Origin: Escherichia phage JLBYU60
Length of the DNA stretch: 44,804 bases
Sequence record: NC_073052.1
Direction: 5' to 3' (one strand)
Positions 2,023-44,804 of the stretch are shown piece after piece; within the stretch, counting starts at the first letter, position 1, and each line of letters starts with the position of its first letter. The position numbers and the translations under genes were made by a program. Under the pieces are notes generated by a model that did no database searches, was not told the origin of the DNA, and saw nothing but the letters and a program-made list of their open reading frames with translations.

Positions 2023-3543
2023 ATGACCGTTAACGTAGACAACCAGCACCCGCTCTATGCGCGCATCGCGCCAGAGTGGAAAATGATCCGTGACTGCGTA
2101 GCAGGGGAGCGCGCCGTGAAGGCGTGCGGCCCATTATACCTGCCACACCCAGCAAGCGGCGACACCACCGACCCTAAATCGCGTGCGCGTTATAAGGCGT
2201 ATAAGCAGCGCGCCGTCTTCCTGAACGCCACCGCCCGAACCCTTAACGCACTGTTAGGCGTGGCCTTCGCGAAGCCGGTGAGTATTGACCTTTCCGGGGC
2301 AATGGCTGACCTGATTGATGACGTAGACGGCAGCGGGATGCCACTGGCGCAACTCCTGCGCGGCGCTATGTCGGAAGTGCTGCAATCGGGCCGCGCTGGA
2401 TTTATGGTGGACTACGACCGCCAGGCTAACTTTGATGAACTGGGTAACGTAGTGCCGCAGACAGCCGCTGAAATGGCGACACACCGCCCGCTTATCCGCC
2501 TGTATACGGCTGAGCAGATCATTAACTGGCGGCAGACCCACGGGGTCGACACGCTAATCGTGCTGAAGGAGACGGACGAAATCAGCACCGAAGATCCGGA
2601 CGACTTCGCAAACCACGAGGTAACGATCTGGACTGAGCTTCGCATGATTAACGGTGTGGCGCATGGTCGCCGCTGGTATTACAACGCGGACACGTCCGAA
2701 GTGCAAATGGACTTGCCGCGCGGCTTCACCCGCACCGACCTTGTACCACTGGTGGATGCTGCCGGTAACGCGCTTACGCAACTGCCTTTCTGTTGGTGTG
2801 GCGCGGTGGACAACAACGCGACGCCGGACGCCGCACCGCTGGCAGATATTGCATCCATCAACATTAAGCACTACAACGCCGAAGCTGACGTCGCAGAGAT
2901 TGCGCACATCGTAGGTCAACCTACCCTAGTTGCGACGGGGCTAACCCAATCATGGGCTGATAAAAACCTGAAGGGCGGCATCGCGCTCGGGGCAACTAAA
3001 GGCGTCATCCTGGGTCAGAACATGGACGCTAAACTGCTTCAGGCGGAGGAGAGAAACCTGTCAGTTGCTCTGTGTGAGCGACGCGAATTGCAGATGGCTA
3101 AACTGGGCGCGGCCCTGGTCGAGAAGGGGACCGCACCTAAGACGGCAACTGAAGCGGCCTACGATGCGCAGACTGATAACAGTATCCTGTCACTGATTGC
3201 CGGTAACGTTGAGAAGGCTTTCAACCGCGCGCTGCAAATCGTCAAGCTGTTCACTGGCGACACCGCAGATCAACGCGTAACGCTGAATAAGTTCTACACC
3301 GAAATCACGGTTGACGCACAGCTTATGACCGCAATGATGGCGGGTGTGCAGACAGGTACGGTCCGTCTGGCGGACTTTATCAAGTGGATGATGGCCCAGG
3401 GCGTTATTGATGACTCGCAAACCGTCGAGCAGGTGGAAGACGAACTGCGAAATCAGAACCCATTGCCTCAAATGTCCCCGGATGCGGTAGAATCTACCGA
3501 AGAAGACCAGGGCAAGGTAGCGGACGATGGCGAGAACAATTAA
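2023..3543 (+). CDS. Portal protein
   Basis: 506-aa ORF immediately after terminase large subunit with RBS; size and position typical of portal; acidic C-terminal tail. Confidence 0.7.
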   Translation: MTVNVDNQHPLYARIAPEWKMIRDCVAGERAVKACGPLYLPHPASGDTTDPKSRARYKAYKQRAVFLNATARTLNALLGVAFAKPVSIDLSGAMADLIDDVDGSGMPLAQLLRGAMSEVLQSGRAGFMVDYDRQANFDELGNVVPQTAAEMATHRPLIRLYTAEQIINWRQTHGVDTLIVLKETDEISTEDPDDFANHEVTIWTELRMINGVAHGRRWYYNADTSEVQMDLPRGFTRTDLVPLVDAAGNALTQLPFCWCGAVDNNATPDAAPLADIASINIKHYNAEADVAEIAHIVGQPTLVATGLTQSWADKNLKGGIALGATKGVILGQNMDAKLLQAEERNLSVALCERRELQMAKLGAALVEKGTAPKTATEAAYDAQTDNSILSLIAGNVEKAFNRALQIVKLFTGDTADQRVTLNKFYTEITVDAQLMTAMMAGVQTGTVRLADFIKWMMAQGVIDDSQTVEQVEDELRNQNPLPQMSPDAVESTEEDQGKVADDGENN

Positions 3544-4630
3544 TCAATATATGGCGGATCGCATGATTCGCCGTCACATCTTCACCCAGCGCCTGAGCAA
3601 TGATCAGGCGCGAAGGGTGCTGGCTATGTGGGAGAAGTTCCGGCCCGCTTTACTTGGTAAGCTGACCGAGTTACTTGATGGCAAAAAGTCCATGAATAAC
3701 AAAGCACTTACCACACTGTTAACGCAACTCGACAAGACCGTCAAAACGGAACTGCGCACCGAGTTTAAGGCGTTGGCTGAAAGCCTTCAGGAGTTCGCCG
3801 ACACCGAGGCTGATTATCTCGCCGACACATTAACGGCAGCGATCCAGCCGGTAGTCGCCGTACCGGCGGTCGAGGTGGTTGGCGTAGTGACCGGCGCGCA
3901 GATCGCAGCAACGGCAATGAAAAACCCGTTCCAGGGCAATACCATGATGCAATGGCCTGACTCACTTTCTGAGTGGACCAGGACGCAGATCGGTAATCAG
4001 GTGCGGGCGGGATTCATCCAGGGCAAGCCAACGATGGAAATTATCGCGGACGTGAGGCGCGCGCTAGGCGGTCGTAGTGCGCAAGCCATCTCAAGCGTTG
4101 TTAAGTCCGCAGTAAACCACTATGCGGCGACTGCCCGCGAACTAATGGTAAAAGCAAATGACGATATTCTCGAAGGTCGCCAATGGTTATCTACATTGGA
4201 CACACATACTTCTCCCATGTGCCAGCTACGCGATCGCCTGTTTTATCCGGTTGATGTTACTCCCGACACCAAAGGAAAGCGCGGCGGGAAAGTGGTGGCG
4301 GGGTCGCAGTATGGCGCTGGCCCTGGCAAGCTGCATTATTGCTGCCGGTCGACGGAGACGTGGAAAGTCAAAGGCATGGAAGATTGGCCCAGTGGTAAGC
4401 GTCCGGCACTGAAGGCCGACGCGGGTCGATTGCTGAGTGAGCAGGTAGACGCGCAGACTGATTTCTTCTCATGGGTGCAGCGCCAGCCGCGCCATATCCT
4501 GGAAGAATTATATGGAGTGCAACGCGCCGACCAGATTATGCGCGGCGTGAAAGTGCCGAAGATGTTCACCGATTCTGGCGAACTGATGACTATTGCACAG
4601 CTTAAAAACCGGGGGTTATGGCGTGATTAA
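3527..4630 (+). CDS. Head morphogenesis / minor capsid protein (SPP1 gp7 / Mu F-like, putative)
   Basis: 367-aa ORF overlapping the portal stop; position between portal and scaffold is typical for this family; no motif-level confirmation. Confidence 0.5.
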   Translation: MARTINQYMADRMIRRHIFTQRLSNDQARRVLAMWEKFRPALLGKLTELLDGKKSMNNKALTTLLTQLDKTVKTELRTEFKALAESLQEFADTEADYLADTLTAAIQPVVAVPAVEVVGVVTGAQIAATAMKNPFQGNTMMQWPDSLSEWTRTQIGNQVRAGFIQGKPTMEIIADVRRALGGRSAQAISSVVKSAVNHYAATARELMVKANDDILEGRQWLSTLDTHTSPMCQLRDRLFYPVDVTPDTKGKRGGKVVAGSQYGAGPGKLHYCCRSTETWKVKGMEDWPSGKRPALKADAGRLLSEQVDAQTDFFSWVQRQPRHILEELYGVQRADQIMRGVKVPKMFTDSGELMTIAQLKNRGLWRD

Positions 4631-4952
4631 ATATGCAGCGATTGGACTGGTTATCGGTCTGGCGGTAGGATTCTGGCTAGGTGACTCCTATCGCGCTGGC
4701 GTAGTGGCGGAGGCGGCGCAAGAAGCGCAAGCCCAAGCCCAACGGCAGCAAACTAAAGTAATCGAGCGCTCCGTGCAGGCAGAACAAGCCCGCGACGTGG
4801 AATACCGGACTATCACAAAAGAGGTTGTTAAATATGTTACGCGCCCTGACCGCCCTGATTGTAGTTTTGACGCTGAGCGCGTGCGGATCAAGCAGCGTGC
4901 CGTTGATGCCGCTAACGGAGTCGGCACTGCGACCGCCGTGCAAGTTCGATAA
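4623..4952 (+). CDS. Putative i-spanin (Rz-like inner membrane spanin)
   Basis: N-terminal TM helix IGLVIGLAVGFWLG followed by A/Q/E/R-rich coiled-coil segment; probable GTG start at 4623 preceded by GGGGG RBS (six-frame ORF begins at TTG 4593); contains the o-spanin gene in the +1 frame. Confidence 0.6.
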   Translation: MIKYAAIGLVIGLAVGFWLGDSYRAGVVAEAAQEAQAQAQRQQTKVIERSVQAEQARDVEYRTITKEVVKYVTRPDRPDCSFDAERVRIKQRAVDAANGVGTATAVQVR

Positions 4953-5064
4953 CCCGTCTGCGGACCCCGACGAAGATTTGATGATTGACGTGAAAAATAT
5001 GGAATGCGGGGCGAAGCTGAGGGCGCAGGTGTTGGAGTTGCAGCAAATAATTAAGGGGCCGTAA
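4834..5064 (+). CDS. Putative o-spanin (Rz1-like outer membrane lipoprotein)
   Basis: Signal peptide with lipobox LTLSAC-G, proline-rich mature part; ATG 4834 with RBS AAGAGG; starts inside the i-spanin gene in another frame and extends beyond it (overlapped architecture). Confidence 0.7.
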   Translation: MLRALTALIVVLTLSACGSSSVPLMPLTESALRPPCKFDNPSADPDEDLMIDVKNMECGAKLRAQVLELQQIIKGP

Positions 5065-5076
5065 TGGCCCCTTTTC
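5053..5076. terminator. Bidirectional rho-independent terminator between convergent genes
   Basis: AAGGGGCC-gtaat-GGCCCCTT stem-loop followed by TTT; lies between + gene ending 5064 and - gene ending 5079. Confidence 0.6.
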
Positions 5077-5078
5077 AG

Positions 5079-5843
5079 TTAGCGAGGAATGCCGCAAATC
5101 TCGTTGAGTGTTTTCACATCCAGCGCCACCGCCGTGGATTTTGGCTTGTCCGGGTACGGGATGAATTGCTCAACTTCAGGCCATGCCTTGATCAGCTTCT
5201 TATCGGTATTGTGCATATCCAGCACGCCGGTAACAGTTAGTTTGAACGCGTCATACTTAGCCCGCAACTCACGGCGGGCCTTGTCGTTACGGTCCAGGCG
5301 CTTGCAGAAATCGTGGTCCGCAGGGTAGTCTATGCGACCGCGTGGCTTATAGATCGGCAGCGATTTTCCGTCCTTGTCCACTTCACACACCGAAGCCAGC
5401 ATAACTTCCTCGAACCCCGGTACGATATCGCCGAGATCGGGAGATAGCTTATTCATGTATTTATATTCCCAGTATCCGCGATGTACGCGGTATTGGTAAC
5501 CGTCACCGCTCAAGGACAAGGTGCGAACGTTTCCGCCTGCGTTGATTTCGAAAGTGGCGTCGTAAACGCTGCCGATACCTTTCGGGCGGTCGGTGTTATA
5601 ACTATACGTCGCCTTGTTGGTGTATACGCAAACGCCGTACATCTGCGACGGGTCATCGCCGATTGCTTCGATGCGCGCAAGTAGCTCGGCGAACGTGCGA
5701 ATGCCTTCCGGCATACAGTCAAGCGTGATTGCGTACGCCAGATCGCGTGAGTCCATCATGATTTGTTTGGCTTCGGTTGCGATTTCGTGGTCGCGCAGGA
5801 TGTTAGCCAGAATCTGATTTTTAATGTCTTTCGTCAGTCTCAT
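5079..5843 (-). CDS. Hypothetical protein (accessory gene antisense to structural block)
   Basis: 254-aa ORF with ATG and RBS GAGGA; convergent with the spanin genes across a bidirectional terminator; no recognisable motifs. Confidence 0.6.
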   Translation of the reverse strand: MRLTKDIKNQILANILRDHEIATEAKQIMMDSRDLAYAITLDCMPEGIRTFAELLARIEAIGDDPSQMYGVCVYTNKATYSYNTDRPKGIGSVYDATFEINAGGNVRTLSLSGDGYQYRVHRGYWEYKYMNKLSPDLGDIVPGFEEVMLASVCEVDKDGKSLPIYKPRGRIDYPADHDFCKRLDRNDKARRELRAKYDAFKLTVTGVLDMHNTDKKLIKAWPEVEQFIPYPDKPKSTAVALDVKTLNEICGIPR

Positions 5844-5883
5844 TTTTATGTCCTCATTTTAGGGGCTTTCGCCCCCGATTGGT

Positions 5884-6198
5884 TTAGTTGAATTTGATGT
5901 TGCCACCGGTGGAAGTTAAGCGGGCACATACAGCTTCAACGGCATCGACGCACATGAAATCGTTAAAGGCTTCGACCAGGGCGTTTATGAAAGATGCCGG
6001 AACCAGGCCGCAAGCCGGATTATCGAATGTTGCGGAGTTGATCGCCGCTTTTGCCGCTTCGGAAGCATTCATGCTCTGGCACAGATTCAGCGCTTCCGCG
6101 TTACGCATTGCGTGAAAGGTAAAGGTATTCGCTACGGTAGCTTTATTGAAACGGGCCATTGCGGCGTCTACTGGAGTTGCTACGGTCATGTTAGTCAT
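5884..6198 (-). CDS. Hypothetical protein
   Basis: 105 aa from ATG 6198 (MTNMTVATPV) with RBS AAGGA; sigma70-like promoter and TTGGTTGCA motifs immediately upstream. Confidence 0.55.
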   Translation of the reverse strand: MTNMTVATPVDAAMARFNKATVANTFTFHAMRNAEALNLCQSMNASEAAKAAINSATFDNPACGLVPASFINALVEAFNDFMCVDAVEAVCARLTSTGGNIKFN

Positions 6199-6226
6199 TT
6201 TGTTTTCCTTCATATCTCTGTTGGTG

Positions 6227-6263
6227 TGCAACCAATATAATGCAACCAACATACGCAATGCAA
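6227..6263 (-). promoter_or_regulatory. Putative sigma70-like promoter with two TTGGTTGCA elements
   Basis: On minus strand: -35 TTGCAT (6263-6258), 17-bp spacer, -10 TTATAT (6240-6235); TATATTGGTTGCACACCAACA element identical to that upstream of 40414. Confidence 0.45.
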
Positions 6264-6352
6264 GCGAATTTTGCGATTATTTCTATCGCTGATAATATTA
6301 AGGCGTGAAGTCAAGCGGGTGGCCCGCTTTGCCACAATCCCAGGGGGATAGC

Positions 6353-7054
6353 ATGAAACTTACTAAAGCAGAATATGACGCGTTGCCCGAAGGTATGAAG
6401 GCGCTTTTTGTTGCCGATGGCGATGGGTATAAATCAACGTTCATGACCGCAGAAGAAGTACAGGCGGAAATCAAGGGTCTGAAAGACAACAACGCGAAGC
6501 TGGTGAGCGAGAAGAAAGCAGAAGCTGAACGCCGCGCCGAAGCCGAGCGCCTTGCGAAAGAGAAAGAGGAAGCCGCCGCGCGCAAAAATGGTGACCTCGA
6601 AGCGATCGATAAGTCCTGGAAAGATAAGTTTGCAAAACACGAAGCAGACACATCGGGAAAAATCGAAGCCTACCGCAAGCAGATCCACGATCTAACCATC
6701 GGCAGCGCTGCCAAAGACCTGGCGTCGAAGCTGTTCGGTAAGAATGCGGGCATCATGCAACGCCACGTAATGGACCGCCTGACGCTGGAAGACGGCGAAG
6801 ACGGCAGCTTGAAAGTGCGTGTCTTGCAGGATGGCAAACCGTCCGCGCTGACTATGGAAGAGCTTGAAAAAGAGTTCCGTAATAACGCCGATTTTGCATC
6901 TGTTCTGGCTGGCACGCCCGCCGGTGGCGCGCCGAGCAAACCGACGCATGTTGTCGAAGATATGAAGTCGAAAATCACTATGGGACACAGCTTCGGCATC
7001 ACCGACCTGACGAAACAGGCGGGTGAAATCATCGCTAAAATGGGCGACGAGTAA
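6353..7054 (+). CDS. Putative scaffolding protein
   Basis: 233 aa, strongly charged coiled-coil-like region (KKAEAERRAEAERLAKEKEEAAARK), located directly upstream of the major capsid gene; start ATG 6353 with RBS GGGGGA. Confidence 0.6.
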   Translation: MKLTKAEYDALPEGMKALFVADGDGYKSTFMTAEEVQAEIKGLKDNNAKLVSEKKAEAERRAEAERLAKEKEEAAARKNGDLEAIDKSWKDKFAKHEADTSGKIEAYRKQIHDLTIGSAAKDLASKLFGKNAGIMQRHVMDRLTLEDGEDGSLKVRVLQDGKPSALTMEELEKEFRNNADFASVLAGTPAGGAPSKPTHVVEDMKSKITMGHSFGITDLTKQAGEIIAKMGDE

Positions 7055-22046: not shown

Positions 22047-22069
22047 GAAAGCCCCGAAAGGGGCTTATT
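22047..22069. terminator. Bidirectional terminator between convergent genes
   Basis: AAAGCCCC-gaaa-GGGGCTT with A-run upstream and T-rich tract downstream; between + gene ending 22045 and - lipoprotein gene ending 22065. Confidence 0.65.
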
Positions 22070-22283
22070 TGCAGGTTGTGCTTTTGAAGTGGTCTACAGA
22101 CACGTACTGGAAGCCGAACGGATAGCCCGCCCTTAGCATTTTATGCCCGGAGAAGTCTGCAACACCATACACAGGGACCGCATAATCCATACCGCCAGTG
22201 TGGTATGTCGCGTCGCAGATTTTTGACGGCATACCGGCACAACCTGACAGAAGAACCGCACAAATCATAATTAAAGTTTTCAT
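22065..22283 (-). CDS. Small lipoprotein, candidate superinfection-exclusion protein (Cor/Llp-like)
   Basis: 72 aa from ATG 22283 with RBS AGGAGATGA; signal peptide MKTLIMICAVLLSGC with lipobox LSG-C; antisense gene embedded among tail fibre genes with its own sigma70-like promoter. Confidence 0.6.
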   Translation of the reverse strand: MKTLIMICAVLLSGCAGMPSKICDATYHTGGMDYAVPVYGVADFSGHKMLRAGYPFGFQYVSVDHFKSTTCK

Positions 22284-22363: not shown

Positions 22364-24049
22364 ATGGCAGCGGGTACACTATCCGTAACGAATAACAGCA
22401 AGGCGGTTGTCGGGGTAGGCACGACGTTTACCGCGTTTAAAGCTGGCGACTTCTTAACGCTGGTGGTAGGACAAGTCCCCTACACCGTGGCAATCGCGTC
22501 CATTGAAAGCGCAACCGCGCTTACGCTGGTGCTGCCGTTCGACGGCCCAACGGCAACCGGCCTCGCGTGGGATGGCGTTAAGCGCGATACCATGTCGCTG
22601 GCAACGATGGGCGTTACCGTACAGGCTCAAAAAGCATTGCGCTTGATGATTGCAGATGAAAACAACTGGCGTGCAATCTTCGGCGACGCTGAAGAAATCA
22701 CGGTCACGCTGCCGAACGGGCAGGTGATGCAGGGTATGTCATGGGGCTACCTGTCGCAGTTGATGAAACAGATCGACCCAGTGGAAATGCGCGACCTGCA
22801 ACAACAAGCCGCCGCATCGGAAGCAGCCGCGCAAGGATTTCGCAATGAGGCAGAAGGCTTCAAAAACGACACCAACACCATCAAGACGCAGACCAACCAG
22901 ATTAAGACGGACACACAGGCTATCCACGACGCCACCAATACCATCAAGACGCAGACCAACCAGATTAAGACGGATACGCAGGCCATCAAGGACCAGACCA
23001 ACCAAATTAAGACGGATACCGGAGTTATTCGCGACCAGGCCAACACCGCGAAGACGGACGCGCAAGCCGCCCGCGATGCCGCGCAGGTATACAGGGACGA
23101 GGCCGAACAATTCAAAAATGAGGTTGACCCGTCTCAATACGCTAAGGTAAGTAACAACCTCACCGACCTCACCGACAAAACCGCGGCACGGCAGACTCTC
23201 AACGCAATCGGCGTCGGGGATTATGGCATCGGAGGCGGCGCACCTGGCGGAAGTTGGGACACAGCAGATGATAGCACCCTGATCGCTACAAACACAGGGT
23301 CCCCACTAGGTGACGTCTCCGTAGCGGGTGTGCATGTTAAGTTTGCGCAAAACTATGCTGTACAGTTCGCGGCGCGTCAAAGCCGATTTTTCTGGCGAAC
23401 TAAAGAGAATGGGGCGCTACAGAATTGGTGCGAAGCGGTGAAGCCGGGGGACTACGGACTAGGGATTGAAAACTCAGTCCCCCCGCCGAATACGCAGGCT
23501 TGCTTTTTCTCGCAGTCGATCGGAACACCGACTTGGGCACCTGCAAACGGCGCAGGATTTCAATCGGCCTACTCGCCCTCTCGTGTCGCACAGCTTATGG
23601 TCGGCGCGTTGCCAGCGCTCTACTATCGTTGGAACACCTCCGGCAACGCGCAAGTCTCCGCTTCGACGGCGCCGTGGTCACGGGTGCAAGATGCCGGTAC
23701 GTCTGACGCCCGTGTGAAGGATATTAAGGGAAATTTAAATGTGGAGGCGGCGCTGGATAACATCAACCGCCTTGAGTTTAAGTTATTCCGGTATACGTTT
23801 GACGAACCGGAGCGATCTACGCGACGCGGAATCATTGCACAGCAAGCGGCAACGGTTGACCGGGAATATGTGCACGACCACGAAGTTCCGGGGATGATGA
23901 CGTTAGACTTAAACCCGCTTGTCGCGGATTGCCTGGCGGCTATTAAAGCGTTAAGAGCGCGTGACGAGGCGAACAAGGCCGAGATTGCAGAACTGAAAGC
24001 TGCCGTAGCGGATTTGAAAGCCGCGGTCGCGGCGCTGACTAAAGCATAA
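22364..24049 (+). CDS. Side tail fibre with C-terminal intramolecular chaperone (peptidase S74-like) domain
   Basis: 561 aa; tandem 21-aa repeats (NTIKTQTNQIKTDTQAI...); C-terminal region DARVKDIKG...LEFKLFRYTFD...GIIAQQAATVD typical of auto-cleaving chaperone domains of phage fibres/endosialidases; terminator downstream. Confidence 0.75.
   Translation: MAAGTLSVTNNSKAVVGVGTTFTAFKAGDFLTLVVGQVPYTVAIASIESATALTLVLPFDGPTATGLAWDGVKRDTMSLATMGVTVQAQKALRLMIADENNWRAIFGDAEEITVTLPNGQVMQGMSWGYLSQLMKQIDPVEMRDLQQQAAASEAAAQGFRNEAEGFKNDTNTIKTQTNQIKTDTQAIHDATNTIKTQTNQIKTDTQAIKDQTNQIKTDTGVIRDQANTAKTDAQAARDAAQVYRDEAEQFKNEVDPSQYAKVSNNLTDLTDKTAARQTLNAIGVGDYGIGGGAPGGSWDTADDSTLIATNTGSPLGDVSVAGVHVKFAQNYAVQFAARQSRFFWRTKENGALQNWCEAVKPGDYGLGIENSVPPPNTQACFFSQSIGTPTWAPANGAGFQSAYSPSRVAQLMVGALPALYYRWNTSGNAQVSASTAPWSRVQDAGTSDARVKDIKGNLNVEAALDNINRLEFKLFRYTFDEPERSTRRGIIAQQAATVDREYVHDHEVPGMMTLDLNPLVADCLAAIKALRARDEANKAEIAELKAAVADLKAAVAALTKA
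22877..23020 (+). repeat. In-frame tandem 63-bp repeats within tail fibre gene
   Basis: About 2.3 copies of accatcaagacgcagaccaaccagattaagacgga... (21-aa unit TIKTQTNQIKTDTQAI). Confidence 0.8.
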
Positions 24050-37614: not shown

Positions 37615-39879
37615 ATGAGCTTGATTAAATTCGCTGTAACAAAACCCGCTAAAAAAGGCGAAAAAGCCAGGGCGGAAAACTTCCAGATGACGACCGATGA
37701 GTTTTTCGAATTTATCAAAGATGCGAAAGAAATCTCCTCGGTGCATATCAACAAGACGGAAGATAAAGCCGAGTATGCGCGCCGCAAGCGTAAGGCCGAT
37801 GGCATCGTGGCGTATACCAGTGACGGATTGCGTCGTAAGACCAGTGCGGTGGACCGTTCGATCCTGTTCTTTGATATTGACCGCACCGACACCCGCACCC
37901 TGCGCCGCTGCCGCAAGGCGTTCATCGACGCGGGTCTGGAACACGTATTTCACACCACAACCGGCGACCGCCACCCGCTGAAAGGAGGCACGCGTTGCGC
38001 TCGTTTCCTGGTGCTCACCGATAAGCCTGTACCTGCTGAAGACCTGGGCCGCGTCCAGTATGCACTATTACACCAACTGGGCCTGTCAGATGTGGACTTC
38101 GATGATTGCACGAAAGACACAAACCGCCTTATGTACCTGCCTCACCAGCAATCGGTTGTTAAGTGTCACTACGGCAAACGTGCCCGCGTCCGTCGTCTGC
38201 TGCGCCTGGCGGATAAGCTGGGAGTGGAAAAAGAGGAAGTACGCCGCGAACTAACCCAGGGCGATGACGGCGTGGCGGACGGCATTCTGGATTGGTGCTT
38301 CCAGGCCGGATTCGAACCGCTGTCGTCCGGTCGTGGTTATGAAGTGCCATGCCCGAACGAACATCTGCATAGTGGCGAAGGGTCCACCGCTATCATGGTT
38401 AAGGATGGCGAGATCCGTTTCAAGTGTATGCACACCGGCAACGAGTGCTGTTCCGAACTGAACAGACACCAGCACCTGGCGCTACGTCTTATCGGGATCC
38501 CGGACCACCTGAACGTCGAACCGCACAACATGTCACGTAAGCAAATCGCCGCCATCCTTCCGGGACTGGACGACGAGGAGGTCGAATCGTGCTATGAACA
38601 TATCGTTGATGCGGTCGGTGACGGCGACGAGTACGGCGGATGTACGGACGCAGACCTGGACAACGAGCCGGTTGCACTGTTCAGTAAGCACGACCCGATC
38701 ATAGAAGGTCTGATTAACTTCAAATCGACCTGGTATATGGCTGGCGAGTCGAACATCGGTAAATCGTTCTACGTGCTGGGCCAAATGGGTGCGGTTGCCG
38801 CGGGGATTCCGTTCGGCGGCGCGAAGGTCGTCCAGTCCCATTGCTTCTATTTCGACGCGGAAGGTGGCGAAGCCTCTAACCAGCGCAAAGAAGCATTGCA
38901 GATTAAATATGAGCACGACCTGGACAAGCTGCACATTATCGATCTGCAATCACGCGGCTGGGATATCACCAGCAAATCCGGCTTGCGTGAAGTTATCAGC
39001 TTCATCAACCGCACCGCTAACGGCGAACCGGTTGGCCTGGTGGCGTTCGACTCACTCAACCAGACTGTTGCGTTGCGGTCCGCGGATGCTAAACCGTTCG
39101 ACGAGAACAACGCCAGCGATATGGGTGAAGTGGTCAAAGCGCTGAAGGCCATCGCGGAAAATACAGGTGGCAGTGCGGGCGTCATCCACCACCCGGCGAA
39201 GGGTGCAAACGGCAGCAGAACCCCCCGCGGGTCCGGCGCGCTGCATGGCGCTGTCGATTCTGCGTTCTTCCTGGAACAGCCGGACGACAACCAGCCAGGC
39301 CAATTGAACCTGTATCACGAAAAGGCACGTAACGGCATCAAGCAAGCGCCGCGTGGCTTCGTCCTGCTCAAGTGCAAGGTGAAGGTGGATCTCCGCAAGT
39401 CAGAAGCGTTCGAAGCCCACCAGTCCACCAGCACCGGGCCGGACTTCGGCGATGTGGTCGCCGGTTGGGACGTCAAGCCGATCGCATCAACGCCACGCGA
39501 CGAGACTCTTTACCTCGTACCGGTCGCCCTGGCACCGTTCGCCATTGAGCAGGCAAAGGCCGCTGGCAAGGCCGCAGTTAAGGAAGAGAACGCCGCAGGA
39601 CCGCGCAACGAAAAAGAGAAAGTGCTTTATGCAGCGCTGGAAAAACTGATGGAAGATAACCCGGACCATACCGGATTCAGCAAATCGGCAATTGTCCGCC
39701 AGGCTGGGCTTGCGAAAGGTGGCACATCGACGAAGGCAATCGACGATATGGTCGAGCGCGGCGTACTCGGTTTTTACACAGATCCGCACACCGGGGCCAT
39801 CTATGGGTCGTCGAATATCGTCATCAAAACGAATATACCCATCACGCTTTCGGCGACCGATGATGATTTAAAAGATTAA
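37615..39879 (+). CDS. Primase-helicase (replication initiation protein with RecA-like AAA_25-type ATPase domain)
   Basis: 754 aa; N-terminal region with LFFDIDRTD acidic motif and Cys/His zinc-binding segment CPNEHLHSGEG...FKCMHTGNEC; central Walker A GESNIGKS and Walker B-like LVAFDSLNQ. Confidence 0.7.
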   Translation: MSLIKFAVTKPAKKGEKARAENFQMTTDEFFEFIKDAKEISSVHINKTEDKAEYARRKRKADGIVAYTSDGLRRKTSAVDRSILFFDIDRTDTRTLRRCRKAFIDAGLEHVFHTTTGDRHPLKGGTRCARFLVLTDKPVPAEDLGRVQYALLHQLGLSDVDFDDCTKDTNRLMYLPHQQSVVKCHYGKRARVRRLLRLADKLGVEKEEVRRELTQGDDGVADGILDWCFQAGFEPLSSGRGYEVPCPNEHLHSGEGSTAIMVKDGEIRFKCMHTGNECCSELNRHQHLALRLIGIPDHLNVEPHNMSRKQIAAILPGLDDEEVESCYEHIVDAVGDGDEYGGCTDADLDNEPVALFSKHDPIIEGLINFKSTWYMAGESNIGKSFYVLGQMGAVAAGIPFGGAKVVQSHCFYFDAEGGEASNQRKEALQIKYEHDLDKLHIIDLQSRGWDITSKSGLREVISFINRTANGEPVGLVAFDSLNQTVALRSADAKPFDENNASDMGEVVKALKAIAENTGGSAGVIHHPAKGANGSRTPRGSGALHGAVDSAFFLEQPDDNQPGQLNLYHEKARNGIKQAPRGFVLLKCKVKVDLRKSEAFEAHQSTSTGPDFGDVVAGWDVKPIASTPRDETLYLVPVALAPFAIEQAKAAGKAAVKEENAAGPRNEKEKVLYAALEKLMEDNPDHTGFSKSAIVRQAGLAKGGTSTKAIDDMVERGVLGFYTDPHTGAIYGSSNIVIKTNIPITLSATDDDLKD

Positions 39880-39954
39880 ATTTTGCGCGCATTGGTTGCC
39901 GATATGGGAATTCCCATATCGCTAAAAGGTTAAATTTTGCGCGCATTGGTTGCC
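39876..39954. repeat. 25-bp perfect direct repeats flanking a 20-bp perfect palindrome
   Basis: TTAAATTTTGCGCGCATTGGTTGCC at 39876-39900 and 39930-39954; palindrome GATATGGGAATTCCCATATC at 39901-39920; first repeat overlaps the primase-helicase stop codon. Confidence 0.85.
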
Positions 39955-40015
39955 ATTTTGAGTGTTTTTATCAGGTCGTATTGGTTGCCGTGTAGTGTGA
40001 ATATAGTGAATAGTT

Positions 40016-40201
40016 ATGCAGTTTTACTGCATAAACCAAACGGGACAGAAAGCGGGACAAACAAGGGGCGGGACAAAGCGGGACAGCACCCCCGTCCCGC
40101 CCCGGATGGCGCGGCCTGGAGAGGAGCGGGACAGCGGGACAGCACCCCAGTCTTTCAGACTAGACGGGGGTCAGCGGCCCCCCTCGTCTGAGACTGAATA
40201 A
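40016..40201. repeat. Dispersed direct repeat, copy B (CGGGACA iterons plus long imperfect hairpin)
   Basis: Same orientation and length as copy A, 28,061 bp downstream; central ~45 bp diverged; located in the non-coding hub after the primase-helicase gene. Confidence 0.8.
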
Positions 40202-40350
40202 AATCCGAGGATTGCAAAATACACGGCAGCATGATGCGAAGGGCGGTCGTCGATGAACCAGGCAACCAATGCGGGTTGCATTATGCTGAGTGAAAAATGC
40301 AGTTTGCAGTCACAGCAGATAGCGATCAACTTTTTCATGCGCGTGATTAA

Positions 40351-40393
40351 TATTGGTTGCACCCTGCCTGGCGCCCTGCTATATTGGTTGCAC
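40351..40393 (+). promoter_or_regulatory. Putative sigma70-like promoter with duplicated TATTGGTTGCAC elements
   Basis: -35 TTGCAC (40357-40362), 17-bp spacer, -10 TATATT (40380-40385) preceded by TG-like extension; second TTGGTTGCACACCAA copy spans the predicted start site; gene starts at 40414. Confidence 0.5.
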
Positions 40394-40413
40394 ACCAACA
40401 AGAGGACTGAACG

Positions 40414-40719
40414 ATGAAAGTATTAATCTGGAATTACACAATGGCAGTGGCGAAGCTGTACGAAGCGAAACACACAAACGGCAACGCAGACGACGCGCGC
40501 CAGGTTGTCATCCTGGCCCAGCAGGGAATCATGAACGCGTTCGACGATATGTTTGCCAGCCTGGACGAACTGGAACCGCTGCGCGTGGCGATCTGCGAAT
40601 ATGCGATGGCATTTGCCCGTGAACGCCTGGCGTATCGCTTCGGGATCGGCGAGACGGCAGTGACAAACGTCGCCCGGATTAAAGCCCAGCGTGAGCTATT
40701 CGCCCAGCTTGCGAAATAA
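40414..40719 (+). CDS. Hypothetical protein
   Basis: 101-aa ORF with RBS AAGAGGA, directly downstream of a sigma70-like promoter (TTGCAC-17-TATATT). Confidence 0.5.
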   Translation: MKVLIWNYTMAVAKLYEAKHTNGNADDARQVVILAQQGIMNAFDDMFASLDELEPLRVAICEYAMAFARERLAYRFGIGETAVTNVARIKAQRELFAQLAK

Positions 40720-40728
40720 GAGGCCAAA

Positions 40729-41160
40729 ATGACCCGTAGACGCGCAAAACAGCTTTCGTGGCATATTCCCCTGCATTGCATACGAATATGGGCTAAGAAT
40801 GCGAATGTGGGGGATTCTGTATTCTGGTGTTATCGCGACGACGTAAAGCCACTGACGCAGACTCGCTACTTGCACCTGTTCGCAGCAAAGCACGGATTCC
40901 AGGTGCGGACTTCCTTGCAACCAATGGGGATCCGTATTACATTACGCCGAAAGCCCGCCATTGAGCGGGTAGGCAAACACTGGAGACTGAGCAAAATGAA
41001 CAAGCAACCTGAACGCTGGCGGAGTAAGGCCACGCGACTGACTTACTTCGTGACAGAAGAAGCAAACGGCAACGTGACTATTTCACACCCTAAGTGTGGT
41101 ACTCGCCGCACTATCTCGCGCCTCACATTAGTTCGTAACTACAGGAGATTGACAGAATGA
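40729..41160 (+). CDS. Hypothetical basic protein
   Basis: 143-aa ORF, arginine-rich; RBS-like GAGG upstream; no motifs. Confidence 0.5.
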   Translation: MTRRRAKQLSWHIPLHCIRIWAKNANVGDSVFWCYRDDVKPLTQTRYLHLFAAKHGFQVRTSLQPMGIRITLRRKPAIERVGKHWRLSKMNKQPERWRSKATRLTYFVTEEANGNVTISHPKCGTRRTISRLTLVRNYRRLTE

Positions 41161-41558: not shown

Positions 41559-41983
41559 CATATCGACAACGCCCGGAAGGCCATTACCCAGCAATGCGAT
41601 GCAATGCGCATGGCTAATCTGGACGCAAAACGCCACGGAATCGGCGTGCTCCTGGTCTACCCCGACGGTAGCATGAAGTCCGTAAGCCCGTTGCGTGTGG
41701 TGCTGAAATGAATAAATTCGATTTAGTGCGGGATAAATTAACCCGCGATTTATACTTGGTGGTCGCCGTAACCCATTACCAGGTTAAACTACGTAATGTG
41801 GCTACTAAGCAAGCGCACTGGGCGCCACGCCATAACCCACATCTGGAGGTCGTATCCCGTGTCGGCTGTGATTCGTGATATGCTGATGCATAACCGCTTT
41901 GAGATAGGCGGTCGGGTATTTCGCAATTACTTCGTGGCGCGTGCATGGGCGCGCCATATTGGCAAACCGGAAGGGGCAATTCG

Positions 41984-42271
41984 ATGCTACACGATTTGAT
42001 TTATTGGTTTGGTTTTGGGTGCGCGACACTCTTTGCTACGGTGCTGGCGCTGTTGGTATGGGTATTCCTGATTTGGCCCGCGGTGGAAGCTGCCAGTATT
42101 ACCCGCATGACGTTCGAGGTCTACAAGCGCCGTGGAATAACGGAGCACCCGACCAGGCTTCGGATGTGGTGGCTGTGGTATCGGGATATGATAGGCGGTC
42201 GAACATTCGAAGCCGTCCGCTCATCCGGGTGGGAGTGGAAAGGCGTCGGCAAGTGGTCCGTTTTCGATTAA
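41984..42271 (+). CDS. Small membrane protein
   Basis: 95 aa from ATG 41984 (MLHDLIYWFGFGCATLFATVLALLVWVFLIW), one strong TM helix; followed by a strong terminator. Confidence 0.45.
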   Translation: MLHDLIYWFGFGCATLFATVLALLVWVFLIWPAVEAASITRMTFEVYKRRGITEHPTRLRMWWLWYRDMIGGRTFEAVRSSGWEWKGVGKWSVFD

Positions 42272-42288: not shown

Positions 42289-42323
42289 AGTCCCAGTGAG
42301 CTAAAACTTACTGGGACTTTTTT
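42289..42323 (+). terminator. Rho-independent terminator immediately upstream of holin start
   Basis: Perfect 9-bp stem AGTCCCAGT / ACTGGGACT with 12-nt loop followed by TTTTT; holin ATG at 42324. Confidence 0.75.
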
Positions 42324-42614
42324 ATGGATAAGCTAAACGAGTGGTTATTCGCCCTTGCGTGTCTTGCTGGTGGCTTCGTCGGCGCACGCATTCACGGCGA
42401 GGCTACGAAAGGGCCGCTAAACTTCGTGTTATATATCGTAGTTGGCTTCCTGTGTGCCATCTTTGGTGCGCCAGCTATCGCCGAGTGGGCTGGCTTATCT
42501 GGCGAGCGCACTGTCGCCGGTTTGGGCTTCGTAACTGCAATCTTCTGGATGCCAATAGCCGCCCGGATCAGGGAGACTATTGAGTCGTTCCGACTTCCGG
42601 GGGGCGCAAAATGA
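42324..42614 (+). CDS. Putative holin
   Basis: 96 aa with three predicted TM segments; immediately upstream of a second small membrane protein and the endolysin. Confidence 0.55.
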   Translation: MDKLNEWLFALACLAGGFVGARIHGEATKGPLNFVLYIVVGFLCAIFGAPAIAEWAGLSGERTVAGLGFVTAIFWMPIAARIRETIESFRLPGGAK

Positions 42615-42856
42615 TTATCTCCGTCCTGTTGTTTGTTATCATAGGGGCTTCGTCCCTGTTTAACGTGTATGCGCCGTCCGTTCAGGATGGCTTCTTCGGT
42701 CGGGTGTTATATCTGCTTACGGCGATGGTCTGCATTATCGGACTGTTGCAAACCGGAGACGTATCTGACGCCACCTGGACCGCGTTAATCTGGTTGTTTG
42801 CATTGCGCACGCTGCGTAATGCTGTTCTAAATGGGGTAAAACATGCGATTCAGTGA
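42611..42856 (+). CDS. Putative second holin / antiholin
   Basis: 81 aa with 2-3 TM segments; start overlaps upstream stop (ATGA); precedes endolysin. Confidence 0.5.
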   Translation: MIISVLLFVIIGASSLFNVYAPSVQDGFFGRVLYLLTAMVCIIGLLQTGDVSDATWTALIWLFALRTLRNAVLNGVKHAIQ

Positions 42857-43334
42857 CAACGGTCTAAGATTTACGGCAGCATGGGAGCAATTCAGCCCAG
42901 TGCCGTATTTTGCGACTAAGAAAGAGCAGGCCCGCGGCCTGTATACCTGGGGCTATGGTCACACCGGCACTAATCCGCCGCGGAGCATTACCCGTGCGGA
43001 AGCACTGGAGCTACTCAAGCGCGACGTGGCGTATGCCGAGAACTGGGTAAACAAGTACGCACACCCGAGCATCAACCAGGCGCAATTCGACGCGCTGGTG
43101 GACCTGGTTATCAATGCCGGTCCTGGTCCGATCATGCCGGACGACGTCGCCGGAGACTTCGACGATGCGATCCGCCTGGGTGACTGGGCAAAGGTCCGTG
43201 CTACGCTGCCACAATTCCGCAAGCAAGGCGGGGCAGTGCTCAAGGGGCTTGTCCGTCGTGCAATCGGCAGGCAGGCACTATTTGATGGTAAGCAGTGGGA
43301 CGTTGCCGAGAAAATCGGGCGAAACGCCGCATAA
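42843..43334 (+). CDS. Endolysin (phage lysozyme, GH24-like)
   Basis: 163 aa; N-terminal catalytic region TAAWEQFSPVPYFATKKEQARGLYTWGYGHTG matching the Glu...Asp...Thr pattern of T4-type lysozymes. Confidence 0.8.
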   Translation: MRFSDNGLRFTAAWEQFSPVPYFATKKEQARGLYTWGYGHTGTNPPRSITRAEALELLKRDVAYAENWVNKYAHPSINQAQFDALVDLVINAGPGPIMPDDVAGDFDDAIRLGDWAKVRATLPQFRKQGGAVLKGLVRRAIGRQALFDGKQWDVAEKIGRNAA

Positions 43335-43350
43335 TACGAGGAGACACAGT

Positions 43351-43512
43351 ATGTTAAAAAGCATTCTTGATCATAACGCCGACGCGCTCGCCGCGCTGGC
43401 TAAAACCGAAGACCCAGGCGCTCGCGCCATTATCGCGGACACTATCAGTCATGCTGGCGTATTTGACGCGAAGCTGCCGAGTCCGCCACCGCCCGCAGAG
43501 ACTGAAGAGTAA
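43351..43512 (+). CDS. Small hypothetical protein
   Basis: 53 aa from ATG 43351 with RBS GAGGAG; followed by rho-independent terminator. Confidence 0.4.
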   Translation: MLKSILDHNADALAALAKTEDPGARAIIADTISHAGVFDAKLPSPPPPAETEE

Positions 43513-43519
43513 ACCACCA

Positions 43520-43546
43520 AGCCCGGAATTATCCGGGCTTTTTTAT
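43520..43546 (+). terminator. Rho-independent terminator
   Basis: AGCCCGGA-atta-TCCGGGCT followed by TTTTTT. Confidence 0.8.
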
Positions 43547-43607: not shown

Positions 43608-44750
43608 ATGCACCCGCAAACTAAAATCACCGACGAGCAATTGATCGCCGAGTTGCAATCCGGCACTACCTCGAAAGATATTGCGAAGAAATACGGGATT
43701 GCCCTACGCAATGTTTATATGCGCAAAGCCCGCCTGTCGAAAAAAGGCATTGGACACGGCAACGATGCCGTAATACGCAAGCGCGTTGCCGATGGGTTTG
43801 GGGTTAAGCGCGTATCGGCCCTGGTGCGTGGCAATGGCGAAGAGGTCATGTCGTGGGTCATCACTGAGCAGGACAAAGAGCGCCAACTCGAAGCCATGCG
43901 CGCTGTTGTCGAGGGTATGAACAGCGAAATCACACCGGCAGCGCCAGTAAAAGCCCCGCCAGTACCGATCCAGGCGCTCGACTTGCTCAACCTGTACACC
44001 GTGTCAGACTTCCACCTGGGCATGTTGGCATGGGGCGAGGAGACTGGCGAAGACTGGGATATGGCGATCGCCGAAGACCTGTTCTACCGCTGGTTTGTCG
44101 AAGCCTTCGCACGCGCCCCGGACGCAGGCACTGCCGTAATTAATATCCTCGGTGATATGGTCCACTTTGATAGCCTTGATGCCGTCACACCGGCCAGCGG
44201 TCACGTACTGGACGCGGATACCCGCTACCAGAAGCTGGTCCGCTACATGATTCGCATGGTGCGCAACGTCGTCGAACTGGCGCTGCAAAAACACCACAAA
44301 GTCAAACTGCTAATCGTCCAGGGAAATCATGACGAGTCGGGTATGATTTGGCTGGCTGAGATGTTCAATACTCTGTACGAGAACGAGCCGCGCGTCGATG
44401 TGGATACGTCCCCGGACGTCTACAAAATGGTGCAGCACGGTAAGACCACGCTATTCTTCCACCACGGGCACAAAGCGCGATTCGATGCTATCGAGCAGGT
44501 TATGATTTCTAAATTCAGACAGGCTTTCGGATCCAGTGAGTACAGCTACGCGCACGTAGGCCACTTGCACCACCAGAAGATTGTAGAATCCCGCAACATG
44601 ATTGTTGAACAGCACCGGACGCTCGCAGCGAAAGACGCCTACGCCAGTCGTGGCGGTTGGATGTCCGGTCGCAGCGCAAACGTCATCACCTATAGCGCCA
44701 ACTACGGCGAAGTAGCGCGCTTAACCATTAGCCCGGAAATGTTGAAGTAA
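43608..44750 (+). CDS. HTH-domain fused metallophosphoesterase (calcineurin-like phosphatase/nuclease fold)
   Basis: 380 aa; N-terminal HTH-like TSKDIAKKYGIALRNVYMRKARL; metallophosphatase motifs GDMVHFD, GNHDE, HHGH, GHLHH. Confidence 0.75.
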   Translation: MHPQTKITDEQLIAELQSGTTSKDIAKKYGIALRNVYMRKARLSKKGIGHGNDAVIRKRVADGFGVKRVSALVRGNGEEVMSWVITEQDKERQLEAMRAVVEGMNSEITPAAPVKAPPVPIQALDLLNLYTVSDFHLGMLAWGEETGEDWDMAIAEDLFYRWFVEAFARAPDAGTAVINILGDMVHFDSLDAVTPASGHVLDADTRYQKLVRYMIRMVRNVVELALQKHHKVKLLIVQGNHDESGMIWLAEMFNTLYENEPRVDVDTSPDVYKMVQHGKTTLFFHHGHKARFDAIEQVMISKFRQAFGSSEYSYAHVGHLHHQKIVESRNMIVEQHRTLAAKDAYASRGGWMSGRSANVITYSANYGEVARLTISPEMLK

Positions 44751-44804
44751 CGGCAACCCATAAGCCTCCCAGCCTGCCGATTTGGTGGGCTTTTTTGTGC
44801 CTGT

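What the first reader, a model, noticed from the sequence alone, without database searches (positions are those of the whole stretch)
4623..5064. Overlapped Rz/Rz1-like spanin pair embedded in the head module, ~37 kb from holin-endolysin cassette
A TM plus coiled-coil protein (i-spanin-like) contains in its +1 frame a lipoprotein gene (lipobox LSAC, proline-rich) that extends past its stop, the overlapped spanin architecture. The pair sits between the head morphogenesis gene and a terminator, whereas the holin/holin/endolysin genes are at 42324-43334. The i-spanin appears to use a non-ATG start (GTG 4623 or TTG 4593). A split lysis cassette implies separate transcriptional control of spanins with late structural genes.
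Basis: partly seen in the sequence, partly recalled or inferred. Interest (0 to 1): 0.5.

Follow-up and report, generated by a model that had tools for sequence, protein, structure and literature searches.

The report
Known overlapped spanin pair, Dhillonvirus phage

Summary
The window is a complete Dhillonvirus (HK578-like) E. coli siphophage genome, 99.9% identical in the compared 2.4-kb stretch to phage Zumzum. Gene 4623-4952 (GTG start, 109 aa) has one N-terminal transmembrane helix. Gene 4834-5064 (76 aa, +1 frame) has lipobox LSAC with Cys17. They overlap by 119 nt and the second runs past the first. Both match PHROG "Rz-like spanin" families. Both stay intact across 19 Dhillonvirus sequences, and the codon-position signal switches frame between them. 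Distant homologues lie directly after a holin-holin-endolysin cassette. Kongari et al. 2018 (SpaninDB) already list this pair for HK578, JL1, EK99P-1, SSL-2009a, EP23 and SO-1. They file it in the overlapped "Jersey" spanin family, with the same coordinates and start. Placement in the head module, apart from holin-holin-endolysin, recurs in Jerseyvirus and (head-module position only) Kagunavirus. Two corrections apply. The map is circular, so the spanins lie about 6.1 kb downstream of the endolysin on the same strand, not 37 kb away. The coiled-coil claim is weak. No functional test exists. Verdict: interpretation supported, already known, low interest.

The parts
4611..4615 (+). Shine-Dalgarno-like GGGGG, 7 nt upstream of the i-spanin GTG
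   Evidence: Conserved as (G)GGGG in all 19 Dhillonvirus sequences. It is the same SD marked in SpaninDB for HK578/JL1/EK99P-1.
4623..4952 (+). i-spanin gene (109 aa, GTG start). It overlaps the head-morphogenesis stop codon (4628-4630) by 8 nt, so it is probably translationally coupled.
   Evidence: phrog_2536 Rz-like spanin, 2.9e-35. It is 35% identical to the Jerseyvirus Ent1 Rz-like spanin, E 4e-15. It is listed in SpaninDB with identical coordinates in EK99P-1. It is intact in all 19 relatives at 102 or 109 aa.
4632..4679 (+). N-terminal transmembrane segment of the i-spanin (residues ~4-19, YAAIGLVIGLAVGFWL)
   Evidence: Hydropathy scan. It lies within the long helix of the AlphaFold model (low confidence).
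4821..4824 (+). Shine-Dalgarno GAGG, 9 nt upstream of the o-spanin ATG, inside the i-spanin reading frame
   Evidence: AAAGAGG is conserved in all 19 sequences. It is marked as the SD in SpaninDB.
4834..5064 (+). o-spanin gene (76 aa, +1 frame relative to the i-spanin). Residues 1-16 form the signal peptide, the lipobox LSAC is at nt 4873-4884, the Cys17 codon is 4882-4884, and the mature lipoprotein is 60 aa.
   Evidence: phrog_5672 2.5e-26 and phrog_1267 2.4e-11, both Rz-like spanin. It is 42% identical to the Ent1 o-spanin, E 1e-18. Lipobox, Cys17/36/58 and Gly-Ser after the lipid Cys are invariant in 19 sequences.
4834..4952 (+). 119-nt stretch read in two frames (i-spanin C-terminus and o-spanin signal peptide plus N-terminal linker)
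   Evidence: Variability is lowest (6/40) at the position that is codon position 2 of the i frame and position 1 of the o frame. It is equal (16/16) at the two other positions.
5053..5073 (.). Hairpin terminator shared by the convergent spanin and Nmad5 genes. The o-spanin stop codon lies in its loop.
   Evidence: -15.7 and -15.9 kcal/mol.
42324..43334 (+). Holin (42324-42614), second holin (42611-42856) and soluble lysozyme-type endolysin (42843-43334): the rest of the lysis equipment
   Evidence: phrog_2359 holin, phrog_2508 holin, PF00959 and phrog_7 endolysin. The cassette is flanked by hairpin terminators at 42289-42318 and 43519-43540.

Best explanation
The two genes encode the phage's two-component spanin. 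The 109-aa product is anchored in the inner membrane by its N-terminal helix and extends a mostly helical domain into the periplasm. The 76-aa product is made from an internal ribosome-binding site in the +1 frame. It is exported, lipidated on Cys17, cleaved by signal peptidase II, and sorted to the outer membrane, because Gly rather than Asp follows the Cys. The two are expected to bind through their C-terminal parts and form a bridge across the periplasm, held in homodimers by the conserved periplasmic cysteines. After the holins and the endolysin remove the peptidoglycan mesh, the complex would fuse or disrupt the outer membrane to release progeny. The sequence features, homology, conservation and gene arrangement are shown here. 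Membrane topology, lipidation, complex formation and the lytic role are inferred from the lambda Rz/Rz1 paradigm. The pair is the last cistron of the terS-terL-portal-head-morphogenesis gene string. It is translationally coupled to the head-morphogenesis gene and ends at a terminator. It is therefore probably made with the late packaging and head genes, from a transcript separate from the terminator-flanked holin-endolysin cassette ~6 kb upstream on the circular map. That last step is inferred from consensus patterns only.
For: PHROG spanin families are hit by both proteins. A TMD, a lipobox, a +2 Gly and periplasmic Cys are present and invariant in 19 Dhillonvirus sequences. The codon-position variability switches frame exactly at the gene boundaries. 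Homologues at 36-39% identity in viral contigs L019-L021 sit directly behind holin (phrog_198), holin (phrog_217) and a GH19 endolysin. The pair is homologous to Jerseyvirus Ent1 Rz/Rz1. Kongari et al. 2018 list the same pair with the same coordinates, start and SD in the overlapped 'Jersey' family. The only other lipoprotein candidate that passes the same lipobox and signal-peptide filter and corresponds to a family-matched gene is a Cor exclusion protein. No unimolecular spanin follows the endolysin, so this is the genome's only spanin candidate. The i-spanin orthologue of phage EE09 (88% identical) was detected by mass spectrometry, so the ORF is translated.
Against: I found no functional test of any member of this spanin family in the searched literature. 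Coiled coils, typical of many i-spanins, are not predicted for the closest orthologues, and the single-sequence AlphaFold model has a mean pLDDT of only 59.5. Pfam has no match. The pair is not adjacent to the holin-endolysin genes. The EE09 authors suggested from gene position that the orthologue is structural.
Confidence: 0.9

Rival explanations
1. The two small proteins are virion or head-assembly components, as their position between the head-morphogenesis and scaffold/capsid genes would suggest. The spanin-like features would then be incidental.
For: They lie in the head module. The EE09 orthologue of the i-spanin was detected with one peptide in a pelleted cell-free lysate, and those authors called it 'very likely' structural on positional grounds.
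Against: The same EE09 preparation also contained terminase, the phosphoesterase and the endolysin, so it was not pure virions. Membrane fragments pellet at 82,000 g. Homologues in L019-L021 sit in a canonical lysis cassette and not among head genes. A lipoprotein signal and a membrane anchor do not fit capsid proteins.
Confidence: 0.03
2. The lipoprotein, with its membrane partner, is a superinfection-exclusion or receptor-blocking factor of the Cor/Llp kind rather than a lysis protein.
For: Small phage lipoproteins often have this role, and this genome does encode one such protein (Cor, 22065-22283).
Against: The genome already has a Cor homologue in the usual place beside the tail-fibre gene. 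The pair here matches spanin profiles and not Cor or Llp. Obligate pairing with an overlapping type-II membrane protein and linkage to an endolysin in distant relatives are spanin hallmarks.
Confidence: 0.03
3. Only the i-spanin-like gene is real, and the +1-frame ORF is a chance open frame.
For: Several GenBank records annotate only one of the two genes, or a truncated second gene.
Against: The ORF, its ATG, its SD, the lipobox and three Cys are kept in all 19 sequences down to 74% protein identity. The region past the i-spanin stop shows third-position variability in the o frame. Homologous o-spanins are found in 645 phage records.
Confidence: 0.01

Closest known systems
'Jersey' overlapped two-component spanin family of Kongari et al. 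2018 (SpaninDB), second subfamily EP23/HK578/JL1/EK99P-1/SSL-2009a/SO-1
   Same: Essentially the same genes. EK99P-1 has its i-spanin at 4623-4953 and its o-spanin at 4834-5065 with a 119-nt overlap. The products are 109 and 76 aa, with the same SD sequences. In the mature o-spanin shown I see a single difference from the window (K to R near the C-terminus, by eye).
   Different: Only a few substitutions. Nothing differs in architecture or context.
Jerseyvirus (vB_SenS-Ent1 gp07/gp08) and Kagunavirus (phiEc3) Rz/Rz1-like spanins
   Same: Homologous proteins (35% and 42% identity) with the overlapped architecture. They sit in the same place, between the head-morphogenesis gene and the scaffold/major-capsid genes. 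In Ent1 the holin-holin-endolysin genes lie at the far right end, flanked by terminators.
   Different: The Ent1 i-spanin is longer (128 aa). Its pair has its own upstream intergenic region and its own annotated flanking terminators, instead of being coupled to the head-morphogenesis gene.
Phage P2 LysB/LysC (prototype of the overlapped spanin architecture) and lambda Rz/Rz1 (embedded prototype)
   Same: An inner-membrane type-II protein plus an outer-membrane lipoprotein encoded in the +1 frame. This comparison rests on established knowledge and on the description in Kongari et al..
   Different: I found no detectable sequence similarity to them here, and the matching PHROG families are different ones. 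In lambda and P2 the spanin genes directly follow the endolysin. The lambda Rz1 gene is fully embedded, and its mature product is shorter and more proline-rich. That last point is from my own knowledge.
Phage T4 PseT.3/PseT.2 spanins
   Same: The spanin genes are located away from the holin and endolysin genes, so a split lysis gene set is a known situation (Kongari et al., Fig. 8 legend).
   Different: The T4 genes have the separated architecture and belong to an unrelated family.

Membership tests
Two-component spanin (Rz/Rz1 type) | i-spanin: small protein with a single N-terminal transmembrane segment and the rest in the periplasm | tested here: met
   One hydrophobic segment at residues ~4-19 and none later. 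Topology itself was not tested.
Two-component spanin (Rz/Rz1 type) | i-spanin periplasmic domain is mainly alpha-helical (two helices joined by a linker, often coiled-coil) | tested here: inconclusive
   The AlphaFold single-sequence model gives helices 5-72 and 84-97 with a linker at 73-83, but the mean pLDDT is 59.5. Pepcoil predicts no coiled coil for the HK578, JL1 and EK99P-1 orthologues and one (29-56) for SSL-2009a.
Two-component spanin (Rz/Rz1 type) | o-spanin: lipoprotein signal with lipobox and Cys, and no Asp at +2 (outer-membrane sorting) | tested here: met
   LSAC with Cys17 followed by Gly-Ser, invariant in 19 sequences. Lipidation was not tested.
Two-component spanin (Rz/Rz1 type) | Periplasmic cysteines available for intermolecular disulfide bonds | tested here: met
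   i-spanin Cys80 and o-spanin Cys36 and Cys58 are invariant. Kongari et al. note constant Cys in this family. Bond formation was not tested.
Two-component spanin (Rz/Rz1 type) | Required for outer-membrane disruption (spherical-cell arrest without it, in the presence of divalent cations) | not testable with these tools
   No experiment on this family was found in the papers searched.
Two-component spanin (Rz/Rz1 type) | Genetic linkage to holin and endolysin genes | tested here: not met
   In this genome the pair is ~6.1 kb downstream of the endolysin, behind three terminator-like sites. The feature is met in distant homologues L019-L021. Linkage is usual but not obligatory, and T4 is a known exception.
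Overlapped spanin architecture (P2 LysB/LysC type) | The o-spanin gene starts inside the i-spanin gene in another frame and ends beyond its stop codon | tested here: met
   Start at 4834 in the +1 frame, i-spanin stop at 4952, o-spanin stop at 5064.
'Jersey' spanin family (SpaninDB) | Sequence similarity of both proteins to family members | tested here: met
   Near-identity to the HK578/JL1/EK99P-1 entries. BLASTP against the Ent1 pair gives 4e-15 and 1e-18. phrog_2536 and phrog_5672/phrog_1267 are matched.

The most novel reading that the evidence does not exclude
Placing the spanin pair as the last, translationally coupled cistrons of the terminase-portal-head-morphogenesis gene string could be a functional device rather than a historical accident. 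It might tie spanin dosage or timing to head assembly. Alternatively, the i-spanin might have a second, particle-associated role, which the single peptide seen in an EE09 lysate pellet hints at. The arrangement is conserved in Dhillonvirus, Jerseyvirus and Kagunavirus.
Probability: 0.05. Interest if true: 0.4.

Novelty: already known. Interest (0 to 1): 0.1.

Why it matters
It matters little for discovery. The pair, its architecture, its start codon and its family are already in the 2018 spanin catalogue, and split lysis gene sets are known from T4. The practical value lies in annotation. GenBank records of this genus annotate the pair inconsistently: only one gene, a truncated o-spanin that lacks its signal peptide, or 'hypothetical'. 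One proteomics paper took the i-spanin orthologue for a structural protein. A correct call also shows that these phages, which are used in therapy and engineering studies, carry a complete lysis set of two holins, an endolysin and a two-component spanin.

Tried and rejected
- Pfam scans of both proteins gave nothing, so Pfam has no model for this spanin family.
- I asked whether a second spanin, unimolecular or two-component, sits beside the endolysin. The ORF there (43351-43512, 53 aa) has no TMD or lipobox and matches only phrog_11068 of unknown function.
- The genome-wide lipobox scan gave the o-spanin, the Cor homologue, and three further ORFs on other frames (706-855, 23533-23706, 22747-23043). 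I did not take these three for genes; each lies inside a longer ORF.
- TTG 4593 was rejected as the start. It is lost in 4 of 19 relatives, and it would place the conserved GGGGG inside the coding sequence.
- The '37 kb apart' reading was rejected after I showed that the window ends are contiguous in a differently permuted relative and that the genus has circular maps. One paper reports cos ends instead, which would still circularise after infection.
- The single-sequence AlphaFold model was too uncertain to use for fold searches, so I ran none.
- Literature searches for experimental work on Dhillonvirus or Jerseyvirus spanins found only annotation-level statements.
- I did not use the large protein-database searches because the answer was already settled.

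Full report
**What the window is.** A 2.4-kb stretch around the finding is 99.9% identical to Escherichia phage Zumzum. It is 93-96% identical to more than a hundred Dhillonvirus (HK578/SO-1-like) coliphages. The gene order is terS, terL, portal, head morphogenesis, the two small genes of the finding, then a short minus-strand island. Scaffold, major capsid and tail genes follow, then replication genes, and finally holin-holin-endolysin near the right end.

**Check of the observation.**
- ORF 4623(GTG)-4952 encodes 109 aa with one hydrophobic segment at residues ~4-19.
- ORF 4834(ATG)-5064 lies in the +1 frame at an offset of 211 nt. It encodes 76 aa that begin MLRALTALIVVLTLSAC, with lipobox LSAC and Cys17.
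- The mature part is 60 aa with 7 prolines and two further cysteines.
- The genes share 119 nt, and the second runs 112 nt past the stop of the first.
- A GC-rich hairpin at 5053-5073 follows. The o-spanin stop codon is in its loop. It is stable on both strands, between convergent genes.

**More than chance.** Both proteins hit PHROG families annotated 'Rz-like spanin'.
- The i-spanin hits phrog_2536 at 2.9e-35.
- The o-spanin hits phrog_5672 at 2.5e-26 and phrog_1267 at 2.4e-11.
- I aligned the window with 18 related loci. The lowest protein identity to the window is 78% for the i-spanin and 74% for the o-spanin.
- Both ORFs are intact in every locus. The i-spanin is 109 or 102 aa and the o-spanin is always 76 aa.
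- The lipobox, the Gly-Ser after the lipid cysteine, o-spanin Cys36/Cys58 and i-spanin Cys80 never change.
- In the i-only part, variable sites fall at codon positions 1/2/3 of the i frame as 24/12/44 (p=1e-7).
- In the o-only part, they fall in the o frame as 12/6/22 (p=7e-4).
- In the overlap, the site that is position 2 of one frame and position 1 of the other is the most constrained (6/40). The other two sites are equal at 16 each.
- This is the signature of two real coding frames that hand over to each other.

**Start codon.**
- GTG 4623 lies 7 nt after a conserved GGGGG and overlaps the head-morphogenesis stop codon by 8 nt (GTGATTAA). Both features are present in all 19 sequences.
- TTG 4593 is not available as an ORF start in four relatives.
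- The o-spanin ATG is preceded by a conserved AAAGAGG at 9 nt.

**What it is.**
- Distant homologues of both proteins (36-39% identity) occur in viral contigs L019-L021. There the overlapped pair directly follows a GH19 endolysin. In L020, where the upstream genes were scanned, two holins (phrog_198, phrog_217) precede that endolysin, giving a canonical lysis cassette.
- The pair is also homologous to the annotated Rz-like spanins of Jerseyvirus vB_SenS-Ent1 (E 4e-15 and 1e-18).
- tblastn finds i-spanin relatives in 664 phage records and o-spanin relatives in 645. Most are Salmonella and Escherichia siphophages.
- A scan of both strands (the sequence extended 3 kb past its end) for lipoprotein signals gave, apart from the o-spanin, one family-matched gene: a Cor superinfection-exclusion homologue next to the tail fibre gene. 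It also gave three ORFs on other frames that I did not take for genes.
- Nothing spanin-like follows the endolysin.
- The pair is therefore the genome's only candidate for the outer-membrane step of lysis.

**Already known.** Kongari et al. 2018 (PMC6139136) built the spanin database.
- It lists HK578, JL1, EK99P-1, SSL-2009a, EP23 and SO-1 as overlapped members of the 'Jersey' i- and o-spanin families.
- Its supplementary tables give, for EK99P-1, an i-spanin at 4623-4953 and an o-spanin at 4834-5065 with a 119-nt overlap.
- They record a 109-aa product that begins MIKYAAIGL with SD GGGGG, and a 76-aa o-spanin with signal MLRVLTVLIAVLMLSA|C. These match the window almost residue for residue.
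- That note explains the GenBank inconsistencies. Zumzum annotates only the o-spanin. PS2 annotates only the i-spanin. Over9000 annotates an o-spanin truncated at an internal start. Many records say 'hypothetical'.

**The split from the lysis cassette.**
Dhillonvirus genomes assemble as circles with predicted headful packaging, and by convention they are opened at terS. One paper predicts cos ends, which would also circularise.
- The end and start of the window are contiguous in the differently permuted Zumzum record.
- On the circular map the i-spanin start lies about 6.1 kb downstream of the endolysin stop, on the same strand.
- The genes in between are a 53-aa ORF, a 380-aa exonuclease/phosphoesterase-like gene, terS, terL, portal and head morphogenesis.
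- The split is still real. The + strand carries terminator-like hairpins with U-tracts at three sites. One is just before the holin (42289-42318, -20 kcal/mol, z -7.2). One is after the 53-aa ORF (43519-43540, z -5.0). One is after the exonuclease gene (44771-44791, z -1.8).
- A TTGGTG-N17-TATAAT match spans the window junction just upstream of terS.
- No terminator-like site on the + strand lies between terS and 5053.
- The most likely reading, from patterns only, is that the spanins are the distal genes of the terS-to-head-morphogenesis transcript.
- The arrangement is not peculiar to this phage. Jerseyvirus Ent1 has its spanins at 6005-6500, between the head-morphogenesis/Hoc-like genes and the scaffold gene. 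Its holin-holin-endolysin genes lie at 39734-40773, flanked by annotated terminators.
- Kagunavirus phiEc3 has its spanins in the same head-module position.
- Spanin genes away from the holin and endolysin are also known from T4.

**Weak points.**
- I found no functional test for this spanin family.
- The 'coiled-coil' label is not well founded. Pepcoil predicted none for the closest orthologues. My single-sequence AlphaFold model is helical (5-72 and 84-97, with a linker around the conserved PDRPDC) but has a mean pLDDT of 59.5.
- A proteomics study of Dhillonvirus EE09 found one peptide of EE09_34 in a pelleted lysate and guessed that it is structural. I show that EE09_34 is the i-spanin orthologue, 88% identical and with the same 8-nt overlap with the head-morphogenesis gene.
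- That preparation also contained terminase, phosphoesterase and endolysin. It supports translation of the ORF but not a virion role.

**Verdict.** The feature is already known, both as a catalogued spanin pair and as a conserved gene arrangement. Interest is low.

Noticed in passing
window 5079-6258 (- strand): A minus-strand island sits between the spanins and the scaffold gene. It holds a 254-aa Nmad5 protein (nucleotide-modification-associated domain 5, PF18757, 7.6e-59) and a 124-aa phrog_24635 protein of unknown function. Its content varies between relatives: JL1 has a 225-nt gene there, and loci L006, L014 and L015 differ. It looks like a moron or hot-spot site.
   Followed up: partly
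window 43351-43512 (+): A 53-aa ORF with no TMD or lipobox (phrog_11068, unknown function, 2e-37) sits directly after the endolysin, where spanin genes usually lie. A strong terminator hairpin follows it at 43519-43540. In phage EE09 a 137-aa ORF occupies this position and was detected by mass spectrometry in lysates and in infected cells.
   Followed up: partly
window 22065-22283 (- strand): A 72-aa lipoprotein (lipobox LSGC) between a membrane-associated protein gene and the tail fibre gene matches the Cor superinfection exclusion family (phrog_1119, 1.8e-27).
   Followed up: yes
window 42289-42318, 43519-43540, 44771-44791 (+), and the junction 44782-44804 with 1-6: The holin-holin-endolysin cassette is bracketed by strong hairpin-plus-U-tract terminators. 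A third follows the exonuclease-like gene. A TTGGTG-N17-TATAAT promoter-like match spans the window ends just upstream of terS. I did not test conservation of these sites in relatives.
   Followed up: partly
window 4834-5064; GenBank records PP925847, OK499985, PV637039; phrog_5672: Public annotation of the pair is inconsistent: one gene missing, or an o-spanin truncated to 52 aa without its signal peptide. The PHROG profile phrog_5672 is 47 positions long and covers only the C-terminal 45 aa of the o-spanin. It was probably built from such truncated calls.
   Followed up: partly
window 2023-3543 (+): The 506-aa gene after terL is called 'portal protein' in some relatives' records and 'minor tail protein' in many others. 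Its position after the large terminase fits a portal.
   Followed up: no
window 41945-42271 (+): A 108-aa ORF with a hydrophobic segment (phrog_2531, unknown function, 9.5e-37) lies just upstream of the terminator that precedes the holin gene. It could be another membrane protein linked to lysis or exclusion.
   Followed up: no
L028 (Zumzum PP925847 22411-22623) versus window 44750-44804: Zumzum carries an extra ~220-nt segment with a 70-aa hypothetical gene between the exonuclease-like gene and terS. The window lacks it, although the two genomes are otherwise 95-99.9% identical in the stretches compared.
   Followed up: partly
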